Origin: Eledone cirrhosa
Lineage: Eukaryota
DNA: 64,000 bases
NCBI GenBank assembly: GCA_964016885.1
Contig: OZ024756.1
Coordinates: 32,798,001-32,862,000 of the forward strand
Direction of reading: 5' to 3'
The notes under the pieces are model-generated. The model was not told the DNA's origin and searched no databases. It saw only the letters and a program-made list of their open reading frames with translations. Numbering within the stretch: the first letter of the stretch is position 1; each line of letters begins with the position of its first letter. Positions 2,999 through 46,551 of this stretch are shown piece by piece. The position numbers and the translations under genes were made by a program.

Positions 2999-5654
2999 CA
3001 AGGTTTAGCAAATAAGAAAAAGTTTCAAAATAAATTTTAAAAAATTCGCTGTACTCACTATGGTTACCTTTACCGAATCGGTTTCGAGTCTCAAAAATAA
3101 ATGGACAGTCCTTGCGGCCTTCCATTGCAAAGATAAACTCTAATATATATTGGTTTTTTTATATCTTTTAGAGGATCGCCACAGCAAGCTGTGCCATATT
3201 TTACATGCGTACATAAAATGCCTCAGCTATTGTTTAGTTTGTCTCAGCAAAGATTCTCATTGACAAAAGAGTTTCACTATATATTGGAATTTATTAGTAT
3301 ATCATAGCTTAGTTGGTGTCGTTACTGGGTGGTGTGACTTCAGTACAGTATAACTACGTGTTTGTTCACCTCGAGCTCAAACTCAAGTCTGTTATATATT
3401 TATTTTGTAGCTTCAGTTCCATTCAAGTAAAATAATCGCTCCGTTGTGTAAGAAAGACTGACTTTTTATTGGTACATAGAGTATACAAAACAAACTCAGT
3501 TAGAATGCACCAAATGTCATTCATAAAGGAGTAGTTCAATCGGAGTGTTTATTAGAAATATCTTAATTGAGATGCATGGTAAGAGTATCGAATACCCGGA
3601 CTCCCATGAAACGATCTTATTAATCTGGCAAGCATTTTTTCTCCTCCAATTAGTAAAAAAATATCAATAATAGTTTATTTTCTTACACCTCATAAACGTT
3701 ATTATCATGCTGGATACCAATGTGGGTAGCTGGACATCCTGTGTATTTTTACTCACATATATCGGGTATTAATGTTTATGTATTATAAAGGGCGGGGACT
3801 TTACCTAGTTAAATGAAAGAAATTAATACTAAAACTCTGCTGGAGGCTAGTTTTCGCAGTATTGCTAACTGTACGGCGCATTCGCTTAAGTCTAGAATCA
3901 TGACTCACTTAGTAAGATATGAACCAACGAATACACTCTTGCGTGGTCGCTGCTTTTTCTGGAAATAGCAGAAATGTGTATCTAAAATAATATCCCAGTT
4001 ATTTGAAGCAGATGGGAATGTTTCCAGGTACATTCTCTCTGAAAGTAAAAACATAATAGAACAAAAGGAGAATGGTCTAGCTTTATCTAGAATGCCTTTT
4101 ATATAATATCTAGTCCAGACCTATCAACTCTCCCCGTCCGAAGGGGAGATCTCCCACCCACTTTGGGGTGGATGAGAGATGTCTTGTCTTGTGAAAATGG
4201 GTATAGCTTTCATTATGTAAAATCTCCTCATTTCTCCACGTTTTGAGGAATTTCTTATTATGGTATCCCCGTTTTGGTTTGTAGAGGTTGGCAGATCTGC
4301 TAGTTGGTCAACACAAACATTAACAACGTCTTAAAGAGGACAATAATTTAATTTTTAAAAATACTCCTATTACGGTTCAGATGTCTCTGTGTCTTTGCCG
4401 TGGTTTATATTTCGCCACAGGTTAACAGAACCAGACTTTCCAGTAGTGTGATCATCTCTACGATCGGAACAATCGTTAGAACGCGGGACAAATTAAATGT
4501 TTTGCAATATTTTCTCCCATGGCTCTTTATATTCTGAGTTGAAATCTGATCGACATCAACATTGATTTGCATCGTTCCCTGAAGTTGATAAAATGGAGTA
4601 CTTGTTAAGCACGTAACTCGATTACATTGACCGTACCCTGATCAAAAAAAGAAAAAGAAAAGAAAAAGATGATCTTCAGCCTAAATTAAAAGTCATTATA
4701 TTTTTCCTCAGCGTATCATAGACTAGACGCGTATTGGCTGTCGTTAACATATTGTATAGAATGCTATGTGACCTTCCTGAGGGCTCTCTGCGCCCTGATT
4801 TCAAATCCTTCCGATGTTAACTTTGTCTTTCATCTCCCACGGTCGATAAAAGAATTGCTACTCTTGTACTGGGTCGATTCTTCCTGTTTATCTGTTCCAC
4901 ACTTCCTCTCTACAATGCTCCCGTTCCTCTGGAAGAGATGGTCTGTGTTCAGACATGTACAGCAGATGGGCTCCATCAGGTTTCAAAAGATTCCGAAGAT
5001 ATTACTATATCACTAATGCGCCCCTACATCCATATCTTCTGTTACGTGCCCATACATACTTGTATACAATAGCATACATTCTGCACCTTGCCATTTATTT
5101 ATCAAGACGCCGATTGATGCTTCAGTGTGGTTATTTTGGCGTCGGTATCACAGCAAACATTCTTCCTCTGATGTAAAAATAGAGATGGGAAAGGAGATAT
5201 TTTACGTCTCAGAAATATTGTTTTTTCATCTAGGAATTATTTAAATATATCAATTATATTTTCAACAAGGAAATGTACTAAGTTCACCAAGTCACCTGGA
5301 AATAATCTGGGAACTGGAGTGAAAGGCATTATAATTGGGATGGGTATTCTGTTGACTCATACGTTTTGAAGAATTAGATAAACAAAAAATAAAATAAATA
5401 TTTACACAAGAGGTCATCGACAATTCCTTCGTAGAATCTGTATTTTGGAATAGAAATTATCCCCCGAATGTCACTTTTTTTCAGACCTCCCACCGACACA
5501 AACAGTATTCAGTGATGTGAAATATTAATAACAGAATCCACAATTTACTGTTGATATTGTAAGTACGCATAGTCTAACTTCCCATACCTATATATGCATA
5601 ATGAAAAATGGAGTATCAGGGAAGTACAGGTACAGCAAACACACACATAAACGC

Positions 5655-11510: not shown

Positions 11511-11588
11511 AGGAATGATATAGAACAAATATATATATATATATATATATAATATAAGATCAAAAGATGGTTAAAGGAGTTCAATATA

Positions 11589-11655
11589 TTTTATTATGCG
11601 CATTTCAAAAACAAACATCATCAAGCAATAATATTTGTGTTTTCATCAGATAAAA
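11589..11655 (-). ncRNA. Type I hammerhead ribozyme motif (H1, inverted arm)
   Basis: Reverse complement of 11785-11851. Confidence 0.8.
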
Positions 11656-11784
11656 CAGGAGAACATGATATGAAGGCTAAAAAACACTTGTTGATAGTGC
11701 AGTTTTAAATCAACATATCTAACTGCAACATATCTAACTGCACTATCAACAAGTGCTTTTTAGCCTTCATATCATGTTCTCCTG

Positions 11785-11851
11785 TTTTATCTGATGAAAA
11801 CACAAATATTATTGCTTGATGATGTTTGTTTTTGAAATGCGCATAATAAAA
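11785..11851 (+). ncRNA. Type I hammerhead ribozyme motif (H1)
   Basis: ttttat-CTGATGA-aaac acaaatattatt gctt gatgatgtttgt tttt-GAAA-tgcgca-TA-ataaaa. Confidence 0.8.
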
Positions 11852-11982
11852 TATATTGAACTCCTTTAACCATCTTTTGATCTTATATTGTATTATGCAT
11901 ACTCCAGTCCCACAAACTGTAGAGTGCTTCTTATCCGATATCTGCATTGCTTTATTGTACTACAATAAAACTCACCTCCTAC

Positions 11983-12017
<35 letters not shown>

Positions 12018-12113
12018 GTAATAATAATACATTTGAAGACTAAAATCCCGTTAAGGGTGAAAGCAGCGATTCTTTGCTTAAACTGTATCTGTTATTTTAA
12101 TATATATATATAT

Positions 12114-12556
12114 AAGTATGTACACGTGCATACTTATATGTATACAGACGTACAGTAGTATGTATATATATATACATACATGCACACATATATATATGTA
12201 CGTATGGTTTCACCGAACATTTATTATAATGCTCGGTGTGCTTGTAAACAAACATCTCGTATTAAGCCGTAGTGTCCGGCAACCATCGTTGAACAAACGA
12301 GCAACGATGGTTGCTGGACACTACGGCTTAATACGGGATGTTTGTTTACAAGCACACCAAGCATTTTAATAAATGTTCGGTGAATCCATACGTACATATA
12401 TATATATATATATATGTGTGCATGTATGTATATATATATATATACATACTACTGTACGTCTGTATACATATATGTATGTACGTGTACATACTTATATTTA
12501 AGTATCAGCCGTACTAAGAGTGGGAAATGAAATTTCGTTTCATTTTTTTCGTTCAA
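12114..12556. mobile_element. (TA)n-inserted fold-back element; no clear hammerhead core
   Basis: ~180 bp inverted arms around a short loop at 12291-12301; single-arm relatives at ~26895-27022 and ~32015-32222. Confidence 0.75.
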
Positions 12557-20718: not shown

Positions 20719-20750
<32 letters not shown>

Positions 20751-20752
<2 letters not shown>

Positions 20753-20923
20753 TTTCTGAATTTGTTTAGCAAGATTCTTTATCTGAAATTGTGTGTTGAA
20801 ACCAATATTGTTATACAACCAGAAATTTGTAAATTCCTAAATTTATAAATTTATTATAATAAATTGAAGTGAAAGCAACTGGTGCGTGTGTTTCTTATTG
20901 GCAACATGACCCTCCCAAAGTAT

Positions 20924-20930
<7 letters not shown>
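20751..20930. mobile_element. (TA)n-inserted element, family G, rearranged copy
   Basis: Shares ttgggagggtcatgttgccaataagaaacacacgcacc and aagaatcttgctaaacaaattcagaaac with 23945, 26677, 27258 and 43865. Confidence 0.75.
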
Positions 20931-21000
<70 letters not shown>

Positions 21001-21001
<1 letters not shown>

Positions 21002-21330
21002 AGGAGGTGAGTTTTATTGTAGTACAATAAAGCAATGCAGATATCGGATAAGAAGCACTCTACAGTTTGTAGGACTGGAGTATACATTATATATAAGATC
21101 AAAAGATGGTGAAAAGAGTTCCATGTATTTTATTATGCGCATTTCCATGTATTTTATTATGTTGATTTAAAACTGCACTATCAACAAGTCTTTTTAACCT
21201 TCATATCATGTCTTCCTATTTTATCTGATGAAAACACAAATGTTATTGCCTGATGATATTTGTTTTTGAAATGCGCATAATAAAATACATGGAACTCTTT
21301 TAACCATCTTTTGATCTTATATATTATATA
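21001..21330. mobile_element. Family H1, second copy with a different inversion point
   Basis: Near-identical to 11700-11985 in opposite arrangement. Confidence 0.8.
21217..21287 (+). ncRNA. Type I hammerhead ribozyme motif (H1)
   Basis: tattttat-CTGATGA-aaac acaaatgttatt gcct gatgatatttgt tttt-GAAA-tgcgca-TA-ataaaata. Confidence 0.8.
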
Positions 21331-21836: not shown

Positions 21837-22654
21837 TTGTGTATGTGTATGTGTATGTATGTATGTTGTATAATTGTGTGTCCTATTTGTGTGAAGGTCT
21901 AGATATTGTCTAGAAGTCACTGTCAAATAAAAGTGAAGTTAAACAACCAGAATAATGATTGATTCGTGACACACACTTAGCTTACGAGAGCTCATCAAAT
22001 GAATGACAAATATTAGAAACCAGTAAAATACATAATAGTTTTAAAGGAATCATTAAAAAAAAATGGATTTCAGCACCTCATTTAGGCGCAGTAATTGATT
22101 TAAAGTATTTGGAATTTTGCAATATAAAATGAATAGTTTAAATAATGTGTGCTGAGCGGCAGCATGCGTTGGTTTGAAATGCTAGTTTTGGTAATTTTAG
22201 TCATAGTGTTGACTGCAATGTTTGTGATGGTATGTGTGTAACAGGCATCTTGGCAGGGTAGGATGTCAGAAGAATAAAATTATGGTGCTGATTGGAGGAA
22301 GGATTACATAAAGGAAAATGATTTTGCGAAAAATATAGAGACGGATGTCATGTCATTGTACTTAAAGAATAATCTTTCGTTAGTTAATAATCCTTGCCAC
22401 GTCACGCATATAACCCCCATTTAAAGGCTTATGCGATGTTAATTTCCTTTTCGTTCTTTGATTTATATATAATATTTTATATTCATTATTTATATTACAT
22501 AAATTATATTTCCTTTTTGAATTTGTTTTGCAAGATTTCTTATCTGAAAACGTGTGTTGAAACAGATATTGTTATGCTTTGGGAGTTACTGAGAGTGCAT
22601 GAACTCGGCTGGAGGGAATTGTAGCGCACAATTAAATAACCGTGTTGCTGTCAT

Positions 22655-23741: not shown

Positions 23742-23944
23742 ATGTATGTGTGTGCTGGGGGTAATATTGGTGAGTGAGTGAAAGATCACTTAATAACATG
23801 ATACAGATTAATATATATTTTTAGTTTTAAATGCCAAGTCATATACATGTTGCACTGTAGCTTCGAATGTATATTCACAGAGGCCGCAGAAATTAACAAC
23901 TAATGGGACTCTACCTTGATATTAATTCATAATATATATATATT

Positions 23945-24124
23945 GCTATACTTTGGGAGGGTCATGTTGCCAATAAGAAACACACGCACCAGTTGCTTTC
24001 ACTTCAATTTATTATAATAAATTTATAAATTTAGGAATTTATAAATTTCCGGTTGGTTGGTTGGTTCCACAACCAGATGGATGGTTGTTTATATAAAGAA
24101 TCTTGCTAAACAAATTCAGAAATG

Positions 24125-24128
<4 letters not shown>
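23945..24128. mobile_element. Family G copy with internal inversion
   Basis: Same two modules as 20751-20930 in a different orientation. Confidence 0.7.
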
Positions 24129-24164
<36 letters not shown>

Positions 24165-25695: not shown

Positions 25696-25751
<56 letters not shown>

Positions 25752-26029
25752 GTCATTACTATAGTAGAGGTCAGACAATTTTTTATTACAGGGTCGGGCC
25801 AGATTGATACATATCGAACCTTGAGCTTGTCAATAGCGAAACGCACGTCACTGCTCAATAAACATAATGAAGACATAACAAATCCATGGTAGTATGGACG
25901 AAACAAGAGAAGAAAAGAAATCCTTCCTCAGCTGTAAACCGGGATCAAGATGTTTCGGCGTGTAATACAGGACATCTATGTACACGATATATTTTTTTTT
26001 TTTTTTAATATATTTTTGTTTTTTGTTTC

Positions 26030-26346
26030 TACATAGTCCTTCAGTACATCTTATGCTATGTAGAAACAACAATATAGTGTACATAGGTGAGACAGCTCGT
26101 AGTATAGGGGAACGAATAAATGAACACTGGCGAGACCTCCAAGATAATAAAGAATCATCTGTGCACTATCAACATGCTAAGATAGAACACAGGGGTAGAT
26201 TAGAGAGCATAGAAATAAAAATAGAATCCACACACAGAAAAGACGCAATGTTTAGGCAAATTACAGAGGCAGTAAGCATAAAAGAATTAAAACCAAAATT
26301 AAATAGAAAATATGAGTGGAACAGCAACATCACAACTTACAATTAA
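26030..26346 (+). pseudogene. 5'-truncated Penelope-like element ORF, GIY-YIG endonuclease domain
   Basis: VHLMLC...VYIGETARSIGERINEH...H..H...RQITEAVSIKELKPKLNRK; YIGET, R..EH, E and P.LN motifs of PLE GIY-YIG. Confidence 0.9.
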
Positions 26347-26470
26347 GGACAAAATGAAAACACACACACACATAGAACAAACAACTTACAATTAAGGACA
26401 AAATGAAAACACACACAAAATGAAAACACACACAGGACAAAATGAAAACACACACACACATAGAACAAAC
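26332..26470 (+). repeat. Short tandem repeats in the PLE 3' region
   Basis: (aggac)aaaatgaaaacacacaca repeated four times. Confidence 0.8.
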
Positions 26471-26627
26471 AATAAATAAATAAATAAATAAACAAATAGA
26501 TAAATGAACACAAACACACACAGACACCCGGATGTGGCGCATGCGCAAACTGAGCACACAACACACAGAAACAAAATGGCGTAGGATAGAAGAAAGGAAA
26601 GGCACAGAAACGAAGAAAGGAATCCCC

Positions 26628-26672
26628 AGTCACTGAAGAGGTCACAGAGTGTGTGACGAAAGGACTATGACT
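26628..26672 (+). ncRNA. Minimal type I hammerhead ribozyme in PLE pLTR
   Basis: agtca-CTGAAGA-g gtcaca gagtg tgtgac-GAAA-ggac-TA-tgact, ~280 bp downstream of the GIY-YIG ORF on the same strand. Confidence 0.75.
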
Positions 26673-26676
26673 ATAT

Positions 26677-26834
26677 ATAAACAACTATCTGGTTGTAGAA
26701 CCAACCAACCAACCAGAAATTTATAAGTTTGTAAATTTGTAAATTTATAAATTTATAAATATATAATAAATTGAAGTGAAAGCAACTGGTGCGTGTGTTT
26801 CTTATTGGCAACATGACCCTCCCAAAGTATAACA

Positions 26835-26836
<2 letters not shown>
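26677..26836 (-). mobile_element. Family G copy abutting the PLE
   Basis: Reverse complement of 23945-24092. Confidence 0.7.
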
Positions 26837-26870
<34 letters not shown>

Positions 26871-27159
26871 ATATATATATGTATATACATATATATCTAT
26901 GTATACATACATACATATATGTATACAGACGTACAGTAGCATGTATATATATACATACATACTTACATTTAAGTAAGTGCCGTACTAAGAGTGAGAAATG
27001 AAATTTCGTTTCATTCTATTTCATATATATATCTATATATATATATAAATGTATATATATATATATATATAATGAAAAATTTGAACAGGGACAGAACAGA
27101 GAGGCAGTACAATAAATGTTTATTAAATTCACGCTCAGGAGAGTGGGGGGTAGGTGGGG

Positions 27160-27257
<98 letters not shown>

Positions 27258-27460
27258 GGTTATACTTTGGGAGGGTCATGTTGCCAATAAGAAATAAAAA
27301 ATAAAATAAAAAATTAAATTAAATTAAATTAAATTGAAGTGAAAGCAACTGGTGCGTGTGTTTCTTATTGGCAACATGACCCTCCCAAAGTATAACAATA
27401 TCGGTTTCAACACACGATTTCAGATAAAGAATCTTGCTAAACAAATTCAGAAACGAAATA
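27258..27460. mobile_element. Family G fold-back copy
   Basis: gttatactttgggagggtcatgttgccaataagaaa / tttcttattggcaacatgaccctcccaaagtataac. Confidence 0.8.
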
Positions 27461-27780
27461 TATATATATGTATATATACATATGTATATATATGTATATA
27501 TATATATATAAATGTATATATATATCAGTATAAATCCCGACTGCTATATATGTGTAAGAGAGACGTTTCTATCACTATTTCAATATGTGTGTATGTTTAA
27601 TCTTATTTATATGTGTGAGCGTGTACGTGTTATGTCTGTGCAGCTGATAGTGTATATCACTGTGTGAAAGTACGTATAGCTGTGAGTCGGTAAGTGCCTG
27701 GGTGCGACAGTGTTGATGAAGCTGAATTGAAGTGATGAATGTCTACGAACGACAAACTGTTAAAAGAGGGATCATTAGCT

Positions 27781-28103
27781 TAACACATTAACTGTTTCTA
27801 CTTTAGGCATAAGGCCAGCAAATACCTAGTGCATTACTGGTACTTTATTTTATCGACCCCGTAAGGATGAAAGGCAAAGTCAACCTCGACGGGATTTGAA
27901 CTCAGATCGTAAAGGGACGTAACTATGCTGGAAAGAATACACATTAATTGTTTCTACTTTTTGGCACAAGGCCAGTAATTATCCAGTGCATTACTGGTCC
28001 TTAATTTATCGACCCCGTAAGGACAAAAGGCAAAGTCAACCTCGGCGTGATTTGAACTCAGATCGTAAAAGGACGTAACTATGGTGGAAAGAATACACAT
28101 TAA
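27781..28103 (-). mobile_element. Tandem pair of SINE family A 3' parts
   Basis: Two adjacent ~157 bp near-identical units. Confidence 0.8.
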
Positions 28104-28451
28104 TAAAATCCTGTTGTTGTTGTTGTTGTTGCTGTTGTTGTTGCCATAGTTCTAGCTGTTGAGATTTTTGTTGTAATTTTGCTAGAGGCATAATGAACAG
28201 ATGTATTACCAGGTGGAGGCATGCATATACAAACAACGAGATTCGTGCGTTTAGGGTTACACTTTCTTAACATTTCTGACAAAACTTCCTTTTCTAAATT
28301 CCGTTGAACGTTTCCTTACATTTCAACGATATTTCAGCACGTCTAAGTAAACGTACAATACATATCACTATGTATACTCATACATATCACTACATCTACA
28401 CATATACACAGTTCCATGTTGCTTCACACATACACACATACCCCCCCCCCC

Positions 28452-28511
<60 letters not shown>

Positions 28512-28516
<5 letters not shown>

Positions 28517-28785
28517 TAAACGGAATAGAAAATGGTGACAAATTGTTCACAGTTGAAAAATGGTTTAATTAGGAATAAAAGAGTATTAGTGATTGTATGG
28601 GTTAGTATTCAGTTGTGGTTTTAAGTTGTGGTTTTAAAACCACAACTGAATACTAACCCATACAATCACTAATACTCTTTTATTCCTAATTAAACCATTT
28701 TTCAACTGTGAACAATTTGTCAGCATTTTCTATTCCGTTTACCAATATATAATAACTTGTGTGTTACACCTCTATTCTTTTAACT
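28512..28785. mobile_element. (TA)n-inserted near-perfect palindromic element
   Basis: ~110 bp arms within 28512-28746 centred on ggttttaaaacc; single arm at 46445-46556. Confidence 0.8.
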
Positions 28786-28854
28786 ATATATATATATATA
28801 TATATATACTTCTGTGTGTGTGCATGTATGTATGTATACACACACACACATGCA

Positions 28855-31930: not shown

Positions 31931-32217
31931 TTTTTAAATATATATATATATATATATATGCATATATTCACCCAAACATACCTTTTCTTAAACGAACTCA
32001 TACATTCACGCAAACAAACAAACAAACCGAGCATTATAATAAATGTTCGGTAAACCGATACGTGCATATATAGATATATATGTGTGCATGTATGTATATA
32101 TATATACATACAACAGTACGTCTGTATACATATATATATGTACGTATACATGCATACTTACATTTAAGTAACTGCCGTACGAAGAGTGAGAAATGAAATT
32201 TCGTTTCATTCTATTCC

Positions 32218-32281
<64 letters not shown>

Positions 32282-32615: not shown

Positions 32616-32782
32616 AGTAATAATAATAAAATTGAAGACTAAAATCCAAAGAGGGCTCGATAAGGAAAATATATATCAAATATATAAGAACCGTAGAGCA
32701 AATATTTATTAAAATAACAGATTAAAGTTTAAGCAAAGAATCGCTGCTTTCACCCTTAATGGGATCTTCTGAAACTAACAAT
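32616..32782 (-). mobile_element. (TA)n-inserted element, family H3
   Basis: Relatives at 12016-12100, 34075-34235, 35283-35403 and 42976-43077. Confidence 0.75.
32726..32776 (-). ncRNA. Type I hammerhead motif with CAGAAGA (U4A) core (H3)
   Basis: Minus: agttt-CAGAAGA-t ccc attaa ggg t-GAAA-gca gcgattctt tgc-TT-aaact. Confidence 0.6.
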
Positions 32783-43844: not shown

Positions 43845-43993
43845 AATATATATATATATATATATTAGTTTAGCGAGGTTGTTTATATGAAATCGTGTGT
43901 CGAAACAAAAATTGTTATACTTGGGGATGACCCTCCCCAAGTATAACAATATATATATATATATATATATATATTTATGCATATTTACACACT

Positions 43994-44178: not shown

Positions 44179-44299
<121 letters not shown>

Positions 44300-44336
44300 G
44301 AAAGATTTGAATGGATACAGTTTAGTTGAAAGGAAT

Positions 44337-44453
44337 TTATTGACACGTGTTTCTATAACAGTTACATAACCTAAAACAGCTATCTACAAACTTTTAGTTA
44401 TGCAGACATTCAATATTTCAATGTTATTATTTACTGTCATTTCATCAGAATAA
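44337..44453 (-). ncRNA. Type I hammerhead ribozyme motif (H5, left arm)
   Basis: Reverse complement of 45611-45727. Confidence 0.85.
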
Positions 44454-44973
44454 TATTACTGAGGACCTATTTAGTTTTTATAGAGAATATTAGGAGGGAG
44501 TGGTGAAGTTGTTAGAAGAATAGTTGAAGGAGTGGTTTTTCGATAGCAGTGAGAATTCTTGGTGGCAGTGAGTAATTAGATTCCCATCTGTTGTTTTGAC
44601 ATTTTTTATAGAATATATTATTGGTTATTTCCCACTACAAGCCGAATATTACATAAAAGAGGGACATCCCCCAACTATATAAACCTTAATCTAGTTAGAA
44701 AAATATAAAAACAATCTCTTCTCAACATATATTAATAACCTTAAATTACCATACTAATAATGAAAAGATATGCTGATGAGAATAGGTACAAATATGCGAT
44801 AATGAATGTGTCTAAAAACGTCCATAAGTATGTATATATATGTGAAAATGTATATAAATAAGTAAATATATATATATGTTTGATGTGTATAGTTAGATGT
44901 AAGTGTATTCATGTATTAAAGTGCTTATATATATATATATATGTGTGTGTATATGTATATGTGTGTATATGTG

Positions 44974-45025
<52 letters not shown>

Positions 45026-45610
45026 AGTATATATATATATATATATGTGTATGTATGTATGTGTATATGGATGTGTATGTATGTGTATGTGTGTACACAT
45101 GGACTAGAGTATGTATGTATATATGTGTGTGTCTATACGTGTGTATATATAAAGATAAGTTGAGTATGAAAATGTATACACATGAGCGCGTATGTATGTA
45201 CATGAATACATGTGTGTATATATATGTGTATGCATGTGTATATATATGTAAGTATGAATATGTGAATTGTGAATATATGTATTTTGTAGAGGTGTGCAAA
45301 TATATTTGTGTGTGAATGCGTGGGTGAAAGAATACGTACACTTGAAAGAAAAATTTAAGTCTGAATGTTAAGTGCAAACACAAAACCAACCACGCATATC
45401 TTTACTATCTCTAATCCTTCTATAGATTTAGAAAAATAACCAATAATATATTCTATAAAAAATGTCAAAACAACAGATGGGAATCTAATTACTCACTGCC
45501 ACCAAGAATTCTCACTGCTATCGAAAAACCACTCCTTCAACTATTCTTCTAACAACTTCACCCCTCCCTCCTAATATTCTCTATAAAAACTAAATAGGTC
45601 CTCAGTAATA

Positions 45611-45727
45611 TTATTCTGATGAAATGACAGTAAATAATAACATTGAAATATTGAATGTCTGCATAACTAAAAGTTTGTAGATAGCTGTTTTAGGTTATGT
45701 AACTGTTATAGAAACACGTGTCAATAA
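45611..45727 (+). ncRNA. Type I hammerhead ribozyme motif with ~88 nt stem II (H5)
   Basis: ttatt-CTGATGA-a atgacagt...actgttat a-GAAAC-acgt-GTC-aataa. Confidence 0.85.
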
Positions 45728-46551
45728 ATTCCTTTCAACTAAACTGTATCCATTCAAATCTTTCTATTTTTCTCCGGATTACTTTTGGAACTACAACTGG
45801 AACCGTCGAGCAAACTCTACGTGAGCTGATAATCTACTGTGTGTAATATTTATATTACAACACAACGGAAAATACTGTATATATATGTATATATATATAT
45901 ATCCCTTCGGACAAAACCATGTGTCTGTGGCGACCTTTAAAGTCACAGCATACCCGCTTTGGCTAAGAACGAAAGACTTGCTGAAGAAGTAAATCCTATG
46001 TTCTGTCGTCAAAAACCATTATATTGCAGACTCCTGCAATAGGAATTTGTCGATCATGGATTTGCAGAAACTTAGCGCTGTCGCTGCGTGCGATTTTGCG
46101 ATCAATATTGTGGAAACACCATGTGGATTGTATATTTTACACCCAGCCTCAGCGTTATGTCCAGGTCAGTAAAAAATCTTTACCTGGGTCCTGTATTTTC
46201 GTTGCTCTAGTGGTGCGGTCGGACTGCCGACTGCTATATCTAATTTGCTAAGCTGTCTGAACAGAATGTTATACTCTGGGGTCTTAACTCATATGAGTGC
46301 TAAAGCTACAAACCGAATAAGCATACACGCTTGCTTGGCCGTATACTAGAGCTTCGTCTATGCTGTACTAAAATGTATATATATATCTCAAAATTATTTT
46401 TGAAAAGCATTTAGAAATGCGCAACCGGTAAAAACTTAAAAACTTAAAACCACATCCGAATACTAACCCATACAATCACTAATACTCTTTTAATCCTAAT
46501 TAAACCATTTTTCAACTGTGAACAATTTGTCAGCATTTTCTATTCCGTTTA

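What the first reader, a model, noticed from the sequence alone, without database searches (positions are those of the whole stretch)
26030..26672. GIY-YIG endonuclease ORF followed by a hammerhead: the link to Penelope machinery
Seen: an uninterrupted GIY-YIG domain, a repeat-rich UTR, then a minimal hammerhead on the same strand ending in TA. Established PLE organisation is RT-GIY-YIG-pLTR with a hammerhead. Inference: PLE enzymes mobilise the short elements and may nick at (TA)n.
Basis: partly seen in the sequence, partly recalled or inferred. Interest (0 to 1): 0.7.

Follow-up and report, generated by a model that had tools for sequence, protein, structure and literature searches.

The report
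Penelope stub from telomerase-finger lineage
This is the broken tail end of a very young, abundant Penelope-type jumping gene whose copies sit almost always in TA repeats and end at two fixed points, and whose copying enzyme carries an extra, telomerase-sized piece that may mark a lineage not yet named.

Summary
The catch is real but mis-drawn. Window 26058-26838 is a 5'-truncated copy of a young Penelope-like element (PLE); a full-length copy with a 1268-aa RT + GIY-YIG frame exists. The window's endonuclease lacks its GIY strand (a 40-bp inversion stands there), and the TA behind the hammerhead is internal; the copy ends 166 bases later. Of 181 copies, 166 end at one of two ATAT sites 60 bases apart, and 154 of those run into (AT)n. 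69 of 73 head-to-head pairs have one end of each kind. The short TA-flanked pieces tested are truncated ends of their own PLE parents (three families linked). This layout is published in outline, and the scan noted it on other DNA of this genome. New here: the RT has a 131-residue motif A-B interval (57-72 in 78 control PLE RTs), shared by 78 homologues; the 23 put in a tree form one clade. It fits none of the named C-terminal-endonuclease clades as described. Nicking, priming and self-cleavage are untested.

The parts
26058..26838 (+). 5'-truncated copy of PLE family A (positions 3656-4455 of the full-length copy L031), ending at the ATG+26 site
   Evidence: blastn to L031, 91.7% over 806 columns, gaps in microsatellites
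26020..26059 (-). inverted 40-bp piece of the endonuclease coding region (parent 3631-3670) at the 5' junction; a slipped extension runs on about 12 bases to an AT-rich end
26059..26346 (+). C-terminal 95 codons and stop of the GIY-YIG endonuclease (YIG, R, H, E, N present; GIY strand absent)
26347..26627 (+). repeat-rich 3' untranslated region
26628..26672 (+). minimal type I hammerhead motif; predicted cut after A26667; activity untested
26673..26838 (+). rest of the pseudo-LTR, repeating the start of the ORF (ATG at 26813) up to the first of two fixed ends
26839..26925 (.). (AT)n tract at the 3' junction, in register with the element's terminal ATAT
27254..27461 (.). short head-to-head pair of family A pseudo-LTR ends (+26 left, +86 right), both in (AT)n
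23940..24130 (.). short head-to-head pair of family A ends (+26 left, +86 right), older copy
20745..20931 (.). short head-to-head pair of family A ends (+86 left, +26 right)
22506..22585 (-). single diverged family A end (+86 type)
11547..11990 (.). short hammerhead pair of family B: terminal repeat of a Hydra-type PLE, short end left, long end right
20994..21324 (.). second family B pair (long end left, short end right)
28514..28790 (.). short pair of family H: terminal repeat of a Neptune-type PLE, two ends about 40 bases apart

Best explanation
The stretch is a 5'-truncated, non-coding copy of a young Penelope-like retrotransposon whose copies end at two fixed ATAT sites and lie in (AT)n, likely because the element's endonuclease nicks both strands of a TA repeat and each freed DNA end then likely pairs with one AUAU site of the RNA to start reverse transcription. 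Shown: parent ORF, two fixed ends (ATG+26 and ATG+86), TA flanks, one end of each kind in head-to-head pairs, independent arm lengths. Inferred: a two-enzyme (dimer) complex starts once at each site and the two cDNAs are joined at their far ends. In the window copy one DNA end started at +26 and gave the 780-base arm; the other gave only a 40-base inverted piece from inside the coding region. The hammerhead rides along in the pseudo-LTR and likely needs a second copy or the protein to cut; insertion likely uses uncut RNA. The short TA-flanked pieces nearby are products of the same process, each from its own PLE family. The RT belongs to a deep lineage with a 70-residue insertion in the fingers that may help hold the short primer-template duplex, as the telomerase IFD does (speculative).
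For: Parent: 150 scored matches at 98-100% amino-acid identity, 30,419 first-look candidates; one of 7 copies reaching the ATG has the whole 1268-aa frame; model matches telomerases best (Z 14.0, rmsd 3.8, 365 aligned to human TERT 7trd) and I-TevI (Z 10.2, rmsd 2.1, 88 aligned). Ends: of 181 endonuclease-anchored copies 91 end at +26, 75 at +86, 7 read through into a tandem copy, 8 unscored or other; 154 of the 166 go on with ATATAT (1 mismatch allowed) against 16.9% of 15,638 background positions in either phase. Pairs: 69 of 73 contiguous pairs are +26/+86, p 2e-16; 2 of the 4 exceptions have identical 50-64-base flanks on both sides. Arms: in 56 simple pairs the +26 arm reaches further 5' in 18 and the +86 arm in 27, so neither is a fold-back copy of the other; 11 of 56 stop within 35 bases of each other against 1.8 expected (0 of 20,000 permutations). 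Pairing at the start: 7 of 103 terminal +86 junctions carry the target-phase T six bases inside the element, 0 of 11 read-through copies do. Two adjacent RT starts, cutting of both strands, a predicted dimer and use of uncut RNA were shown in vitro for Poseidon_Ac (PMC11167929). No arm starts at the predicted ribozyme cut: 178 of 215 arms run through it and the 10 real truncations in it fall elsewhere.
Against: ATAT at a junction can come from either element or target, so the start base is ambiguous; in vitro Poseidon_Ac starts without homology. 7 of 166 ends are not in a TA tract (12 failed the test, 5 of them have TA after a short break). 45 of 56 pairs do not share a 5' breakpoint. Arms of a pair were not shown to share private variants: 5 shared rare letters in 31 pairs, the family being too uniform. 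About 50 of 173 copies have no second arm (rough classes). One empty-site comparison shows far more TA after insertion than before (L038: about 78 bases against about 10-20 in the other copies printed). Nothing here tests nicking, priming or the role of the insertion.
Confidence: 0.72

Rival explanations
1. The TA tracts are partly written by the element: its telomerase-like RT copies the AUAU site repeatedly before it moves on, so it lengthens or creates microsatellites.
For: L038 lies in a repeat whose other copies have about 10-20 TA bases there, yet is flanked by 68 + 10. Pure TA at ends is long (medians 26 and 17) against a background median of 19 for tracts of 8 or more. RT fold and A-B insertion are telomerase-like.
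Against: Both ends of L142 and L185 have no TA tract, and the L142 junction is present in reads. An inverted duplicate of the L015 site without the element has about 60 TA bases, as many as the filled site's 57. Slippage after insertion explains L038 as well. The +26/+86 length difference is not significant (p 0.06).
Confidence: 0.12
2. One cDNA is made and then folds back or self-primes to give the inverted arm (self-priming model of PMC3846280); the two ends are fixed by endonuclease resolution, not by two starts.
For: Near-perfect palindromes occur (4 of 56 pairs share the breakpoint within 2 bases); the model is published.
Against: A fold-back arm cannot be longer than its template at either end, yet the +26 arm reaches further 5' in 18 of 56 pairs while the +86 arm carries 60 more 3' bases.
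Confidence: 0.1
3. One reading: this enzyme moves the window's unrelated short elements in trans.
For: All short families share TA ends and the two-end layout. Trans action of PLEs is reported (PMC3846280 passages; retrozyme preprint). Several short families remain without a parent.
Against: Three of three families traced have their own ORF-bearing parent, from three different PLE lineages. PMC3846280 reports no cross-mobilisation between PLE types.
Confidence: 0.06

Closest known systems
Nematis-clade PLEs (Craig et al. 2021, PMC8557442; Fig. S1, S2 rows seen)
   Same: C-terminal GIY-YIG with CCHH; short CX4CX2C-X7-C linker; similar endonuclease C-terminus; long HK...RP segment in the RT.
   Different: Motif A-B interval 131 residues against about 63 in the C. 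remanei row (my count); motif B reads GAAIG; a short-interval, short-linker protein (P0347) falls outside the clade in my tree.
Neptune-clade PLEs (PMC8557442)
   Same: C-terminal endonuclease, zinc-finger-like linker, hammerhead in pseudo-LTR, proposed (TA)n bias.
   Different: Linker spacing 7 against 23-29 residues; A-B interval 131 against 57-64; separate clade.
Poseidon_Ac of Anolis carolinensis (Frangieh et al. 2024, PMC11167929)
   Same: Two RT starts inside the first part of the ORF that define a tail; hammerhead dispensable for insertion; AT-rich target.
   Different: Tail 60 bases (30-40 typical); both starts here are ATAT in register with a (TA)n target, whereas Poseidon_Ac starts without homology; no zinc linker in that clade.
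Naiad / Chlamys PLEs (PMC8557442)
   Same: Insertion in the fingers; (TA)n bias in Naiads.
   Different: Their endonuclease is N-terminal and they mostly lack hammerheads; their insertion is about 20-40 residues as described, here about 70.
Minimal hammerheads of metazoan PLEs (Cervera and De la Pena 2014, PMC4209133)
   Same: Type I, extra base between positions 9 and 10.1, G10.1-C11.1, long stem II, short stem I, 2-bp stem III.
   Different: Loop 3 is GA, not palindromic, in 169 of 215 copies identical to the window's; a dimer would hold tandem G-A pairs; the sister family has a palindromic AU loop.

Membership tests
Endonuclease-bearing PLE | single ORF with RT and GIY-YIG endonuclease | tested here: met
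   L031, 1268 aa; YLDD in L031, YVDD in L032 and L033; model matches TERT and I-TevI. The window copy itself holds only the last 95 codons.
Endonuclease-bearing PLE | telomerase-related RT | tested here: met
   Top three Foldseek rows and top 14 VIA-align rows are telomerases.
Endonuclease-bearing PLE | pseudo-LTR that repeats the ORF start, with direct or inverted copies and a one-sided tail | tested here: met
Endonuclease-bearing PLE | CCHH motif with two cysteines between GIY and YIG | tested here: met
   C-TEGQ-C, then H and H in L031; cysteines conserved in most of 14 aligned rows.
Endonuclease-bearing PLE | nicking and target-primed reverse transcription activity | not testable with these tools
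   needs purified protein
Endonuclease-bearing PLE | retained spliceosomal intron (some families) | not tested
   no RNA run was listed
Nematis | short CX2-5CxxC linker before a C-terminal endonuclease | tested here: met
   CX4CX2C-X7-C against Fig. S2 rows
Nematis | no insertion in the fingers (canonical C-terminal PLEs) | tested here: not met
   A-B interval 131; paper statement
Nematis | RT groups with named Nematis sequences | tested here: inconclusive
   no named reference could be put in the tree; the Nematis-like P0347 lies outside the clade
Neptune | zinc linker of Neptune length and short A-B interval | tested here: not met
   linker 7 against 23-29; interval 131 against 57-64
Naiad / Chlamys | N-terminal endonuclease | tested here: not met
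   endonuclease is C-terminal
Naiad / Chlamys | insertion in the fingers | tested here: met
   met by position and length only; homology to their insertion or to the TERT IFD was not tested residue by residue
Hydra | DKT motif, CxCX5C linker, no CCHH | tested here: not met
   family A has DKS and CCHH; family B (L123) has DKT and CxCX5C
Minimal PLE hammerhead | conserved core, extra base after A9, stems I and II | tested here: met
   stem II keeps 6 pairs in the sister family with two double changes
Minimal PLE hammerhead | palindromic loop 3 for dimer cleavage | tested here: not met
   GA loop; predicted self-duplex -3.7 kcal/mol against -9.5 for a palindromic control
Minimal PLE hammerhead | self-cleavage | not testable with these tools
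   no RNA reads; no pile-up of 5' ends at the predicted site
Non-LTR retrozyme / non-autonomous short element | tandem ribozyme units without an ORF-bearing parent | tested here: not met
   colinear with the ORF-bearing L031

The most novel reading that the evidence does not exclude
[quoted passage not shown] Its intact, currently expanding copies would be the best handle on how telomerase-type priming arose.
Probability: 0.3. Interest if true: 0.75.

Novelty: new variant of a known kind. Interest (0 to 1): 0.48.

Why it matters
How PLEs make head-to-head insertions and find microsatellites is named as an open problem (PMC8557442), and only one PLE works in vitro (PMC11167929). This family offers an intact 1268-aa protein, two base-exact predicted starts, a defined target and a 69-of-73 pairing rule, so the two-start model can be tested directly. 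The fingers insertion bears on the link between PLEs and telomerase, since canonical C-terminal PLEs are described as lacking it. The window copy alone is an ordinary dead stub.

Tried and rejected
Rfam finds no hammerhead here: not evidence against, minimal motifs are not modelled. Pfam finds no RT in the full-length protein; structure search does. The run of T and 'tacatag' before the ORF looks like a splice acceptor but is the inverted piece and its junction: rejected. Own-genome searches for short families C (44297-45767) and D (32618-32779) found nothing, not even themselves: uninformative. Family J (25749-25885): no parent shown in 12 loci. No RNA holder listed: no evidence on expression. 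Empty-site search among flanks gave 2 usable cases of 77 pairs. Arm-versus-arm variants: inconclusive; the two arms with 21 and 28 differences are indel artefacts of an ungapped comparison, not A-to-G editing. Folding of the two start regions gave no significant structure (z -1.46), so I do not claim a hairpin signal. The IQ-TREE run did not finish; the tree is FastTree on 103 rows, 22 chosen long-interval proteins plus P0043, 78 of 87 control proteins (9 dropped because motifs were not found), P0041 dropped likewise, rooted on one Hydra-type RT with a very long branch. The 5'-junction classes are rough.

Full report
What is there. The window is G000:C17:32798001-32862000 of a 3.0-Gb animal genome; the nearest named homologue of the element's protein is from Octopus vulgaris (66% identity). 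Two parts of the description fail. The reading frame is open from 25966, but only 26059-26343 is endonuclease, residues 1174-1268 of the parent; 26020-26059 is an inverted 40-bp piece of the same coding region, so the GIY strand is gone. And the element does not end at the TA behind the ribozyme: it runs to 26838, through a pseudo-LTR that repeats the first 26 bases of the ORF, and then enters (AT)n.

The parent. A search with the endonuclease gave 30,419 first-look candidates, of which 150 were scored, all 98-100% identical. L031 is full length: inverted pseudo-LTR piece, pseudo-LTR, 1268-aa ORF, UTR, hammerhead, pseudo-LTR, with (TA)n on both sides. Of 173 copies whose 5' end was in view, 7 reach the ATG and 1 of these has the whole frame. 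An AlphaFold model of residues 489-1268 (mean pLDDT 82.5) matches telomerases best and I-TevI in the last domain.

Ends and target. Copies were chosen by likeness to the endonuclease or pseudo-LTR, not by flank (loci). Of 181 endonuclease-anchored copies, 91 end at ATG+26 and 75 at ATG+86, both at an internal ATAT; 7 read through into a tandem copy; 8 were unscored or other. 154 of the 166 continue with ATATAT, against 16.9% of 15,638 background positions; 7 ends have no TA tract. Of 77 head-to-head neighbours, 73 are contiguous element sequence, and 69 of these have one +26 and one +86 end. Either arm can be the longer (18 and 27 of 56), and 11 of 56 share the inner breakpoint within 35 bases against 1.8 expected. 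At +86, 7 of 103 terminal junctions carry a target-phase T six bases inside the element, 0 of 11 read-through copies. This fits two starts on RNA, each primed by a TA end, and in a fifth of pairs probably one RNA; shared private variants could not confirm that. Whether TA is there beforehand is only partly answered: one paralogous empty site has as much TA as the filled one (L015), one has far less (L038), and two pairs have none at either end.

The ribozyme. The motif has the traits listed for minimal PLE hammerheads (PMC4209133, parts 1-2 of 4 read) except a palindromic loop 3. It is identical in 169 of 215 copies and arose in 0 of 5000 shuffles. A sister family keeps the core and a 6-bp stem II through two double changes, with an AU loop and a 2-bp stem I. 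178 of 215 arms run through it and none starts at the predicted cut, in line with the report that uncut RNA is the substrate (PMC11167929, parts 1-2 of 4 read). That tandem G-A pairs could close a dimer helix is recalled knowledge, not a call result.

The short families. Four more pieces in the window are family A ends, three of them +26/+86 pairs. The hammerhead pieces at 11547-11990 and 20994-21324 are the terminal repeat of a Hydra-type PLE, contiguous with its endonuclease in 3 of 30 loci and with a 718-aa frame in L123. The piece at 28514-28790 is contiguous with a Neptune-type endonuclease and RT. Both show their own two ends. So PLE enzymes do make these pieces, but as truncated copies of their own elements. 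Families C, D and J stayed unlinked and others were not searched.

The RT lineage. From the motif A aspartate to motif B there are 131 residues in L031, 127-144 in all 78 long-type proteins where both motifs were found among 195 examined, and 57-72 in 78 of 87 relatives of the Neptune-type RT. By my count from Fig. S1 of PMC8557442 the interval is about 60 in a Neptune, 63 in a Nematis, 84 in a Naiad, up to about 122 in one Chlamys and about 118 in human TERT. The paper states that canonical C-terminal PLEs lack this insertion. In the model the insertion is folded (pLDDT blocks 71-95). With the insertion cut out, the 23 long-interval proteins in the tree form one clade (support 1.0, stem 1.47) apart from Neptune-type, Puccinia and rotifer RTs and from a Nematis-like protein. 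Limits: the long set was gathered by likeness to the query, no named reference is in the tree, and the root is one long branch. I found no description of this lineage in paper searches for Penelope-like + IFD + telomerase, the clade names or four of its motifs in the supplement of PMC8557442; Repbase, Dfam and Arkhipova 2006 were not available, so it may already be filed there.

What is known. Inverted copies, a tail on one side and (TA)n bias are described (PMC8557442, passages and sections 3, 11, 12 and supplement passages; PMC3846280, passages). Recently active PLEs are listed for O. vulgaris (PMC13282606, part 1 of 3). Retrozymes are proposed as PLE derivatives (bioRxiv 10.64898/2026.07.22.740005, part 1 of 5 and passages; supplements not seen). 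PMC12602865 (passages) added nothing. Earlier notes of this scan report two-armed insertions with two fixed starts elsewhere in this genome; I reached that reading before looking, and those notes are not independent support. None of them mentions the fingers insertion and none covers this sequence.

Verdict. What lifts it is the family: young, intact, base-exact ends with a strict pairing rule, and an RT that fits no named C-terminal clade. New variant of a known kind, interest 0.48.

Noticed in passing
window 25749-25885: Short repeat directly upstream of the finding with the second half of a hammerhead core (GAAAC-GCAC-GTC) but no canonical first half; 3,126 candidates; perhaps a rearranged ribozyme; no parent found.
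   Followed up: partly
window 44297-44630 and 45434-45767: Perfect 334-bp inverted arms with a hammerhead-like core, 803 bases apart with other repeats nested between; genome search uninformative.
   Followed up: partly
window 43864-43952; L032:1-1450, L120, L126: Ends likely of a sister family (55% identical endonuclease) that shares the ATG+26 end and has a covarying hammerhead with a 2-bp stem I.
   Followed up: partly
L031, ORF residues about 250-480: Long asparagine/threonine-rich in-frame stretch of variable length before the RT, like the N-rich inserts described in rotifer PLEs.
   Followed up: no
L033:2381-8946: A family A pair is nested in the microsatellite of a Neptune-type PLE's UTR; PLE ends make TA tracts that take up further PLEs.
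   Followed up: partly
L142:1846-1905: Word depth over the element's last bases is about 1.9 million against 13 on the unique flank; the tool warns this is no copy number, but it points to a very large number of end fragments.
   Followed up: no
proteins P0040, P0044, P0319: Octopus gene models annotated as host proteins contain pieces of these PLE frames: likely annotation artefacts or exonised fragments.
   Followed up: no
window 27783-28104: Two tandem 156-bp copies of a SINE-like repeat; family name not checked.
   Followed up: no
window 12107-12545, 26925-27022, 32018-32220: Abundant short family F with internal TA tracts, often in inverted pairs; no parent sought.
   Followed up: no
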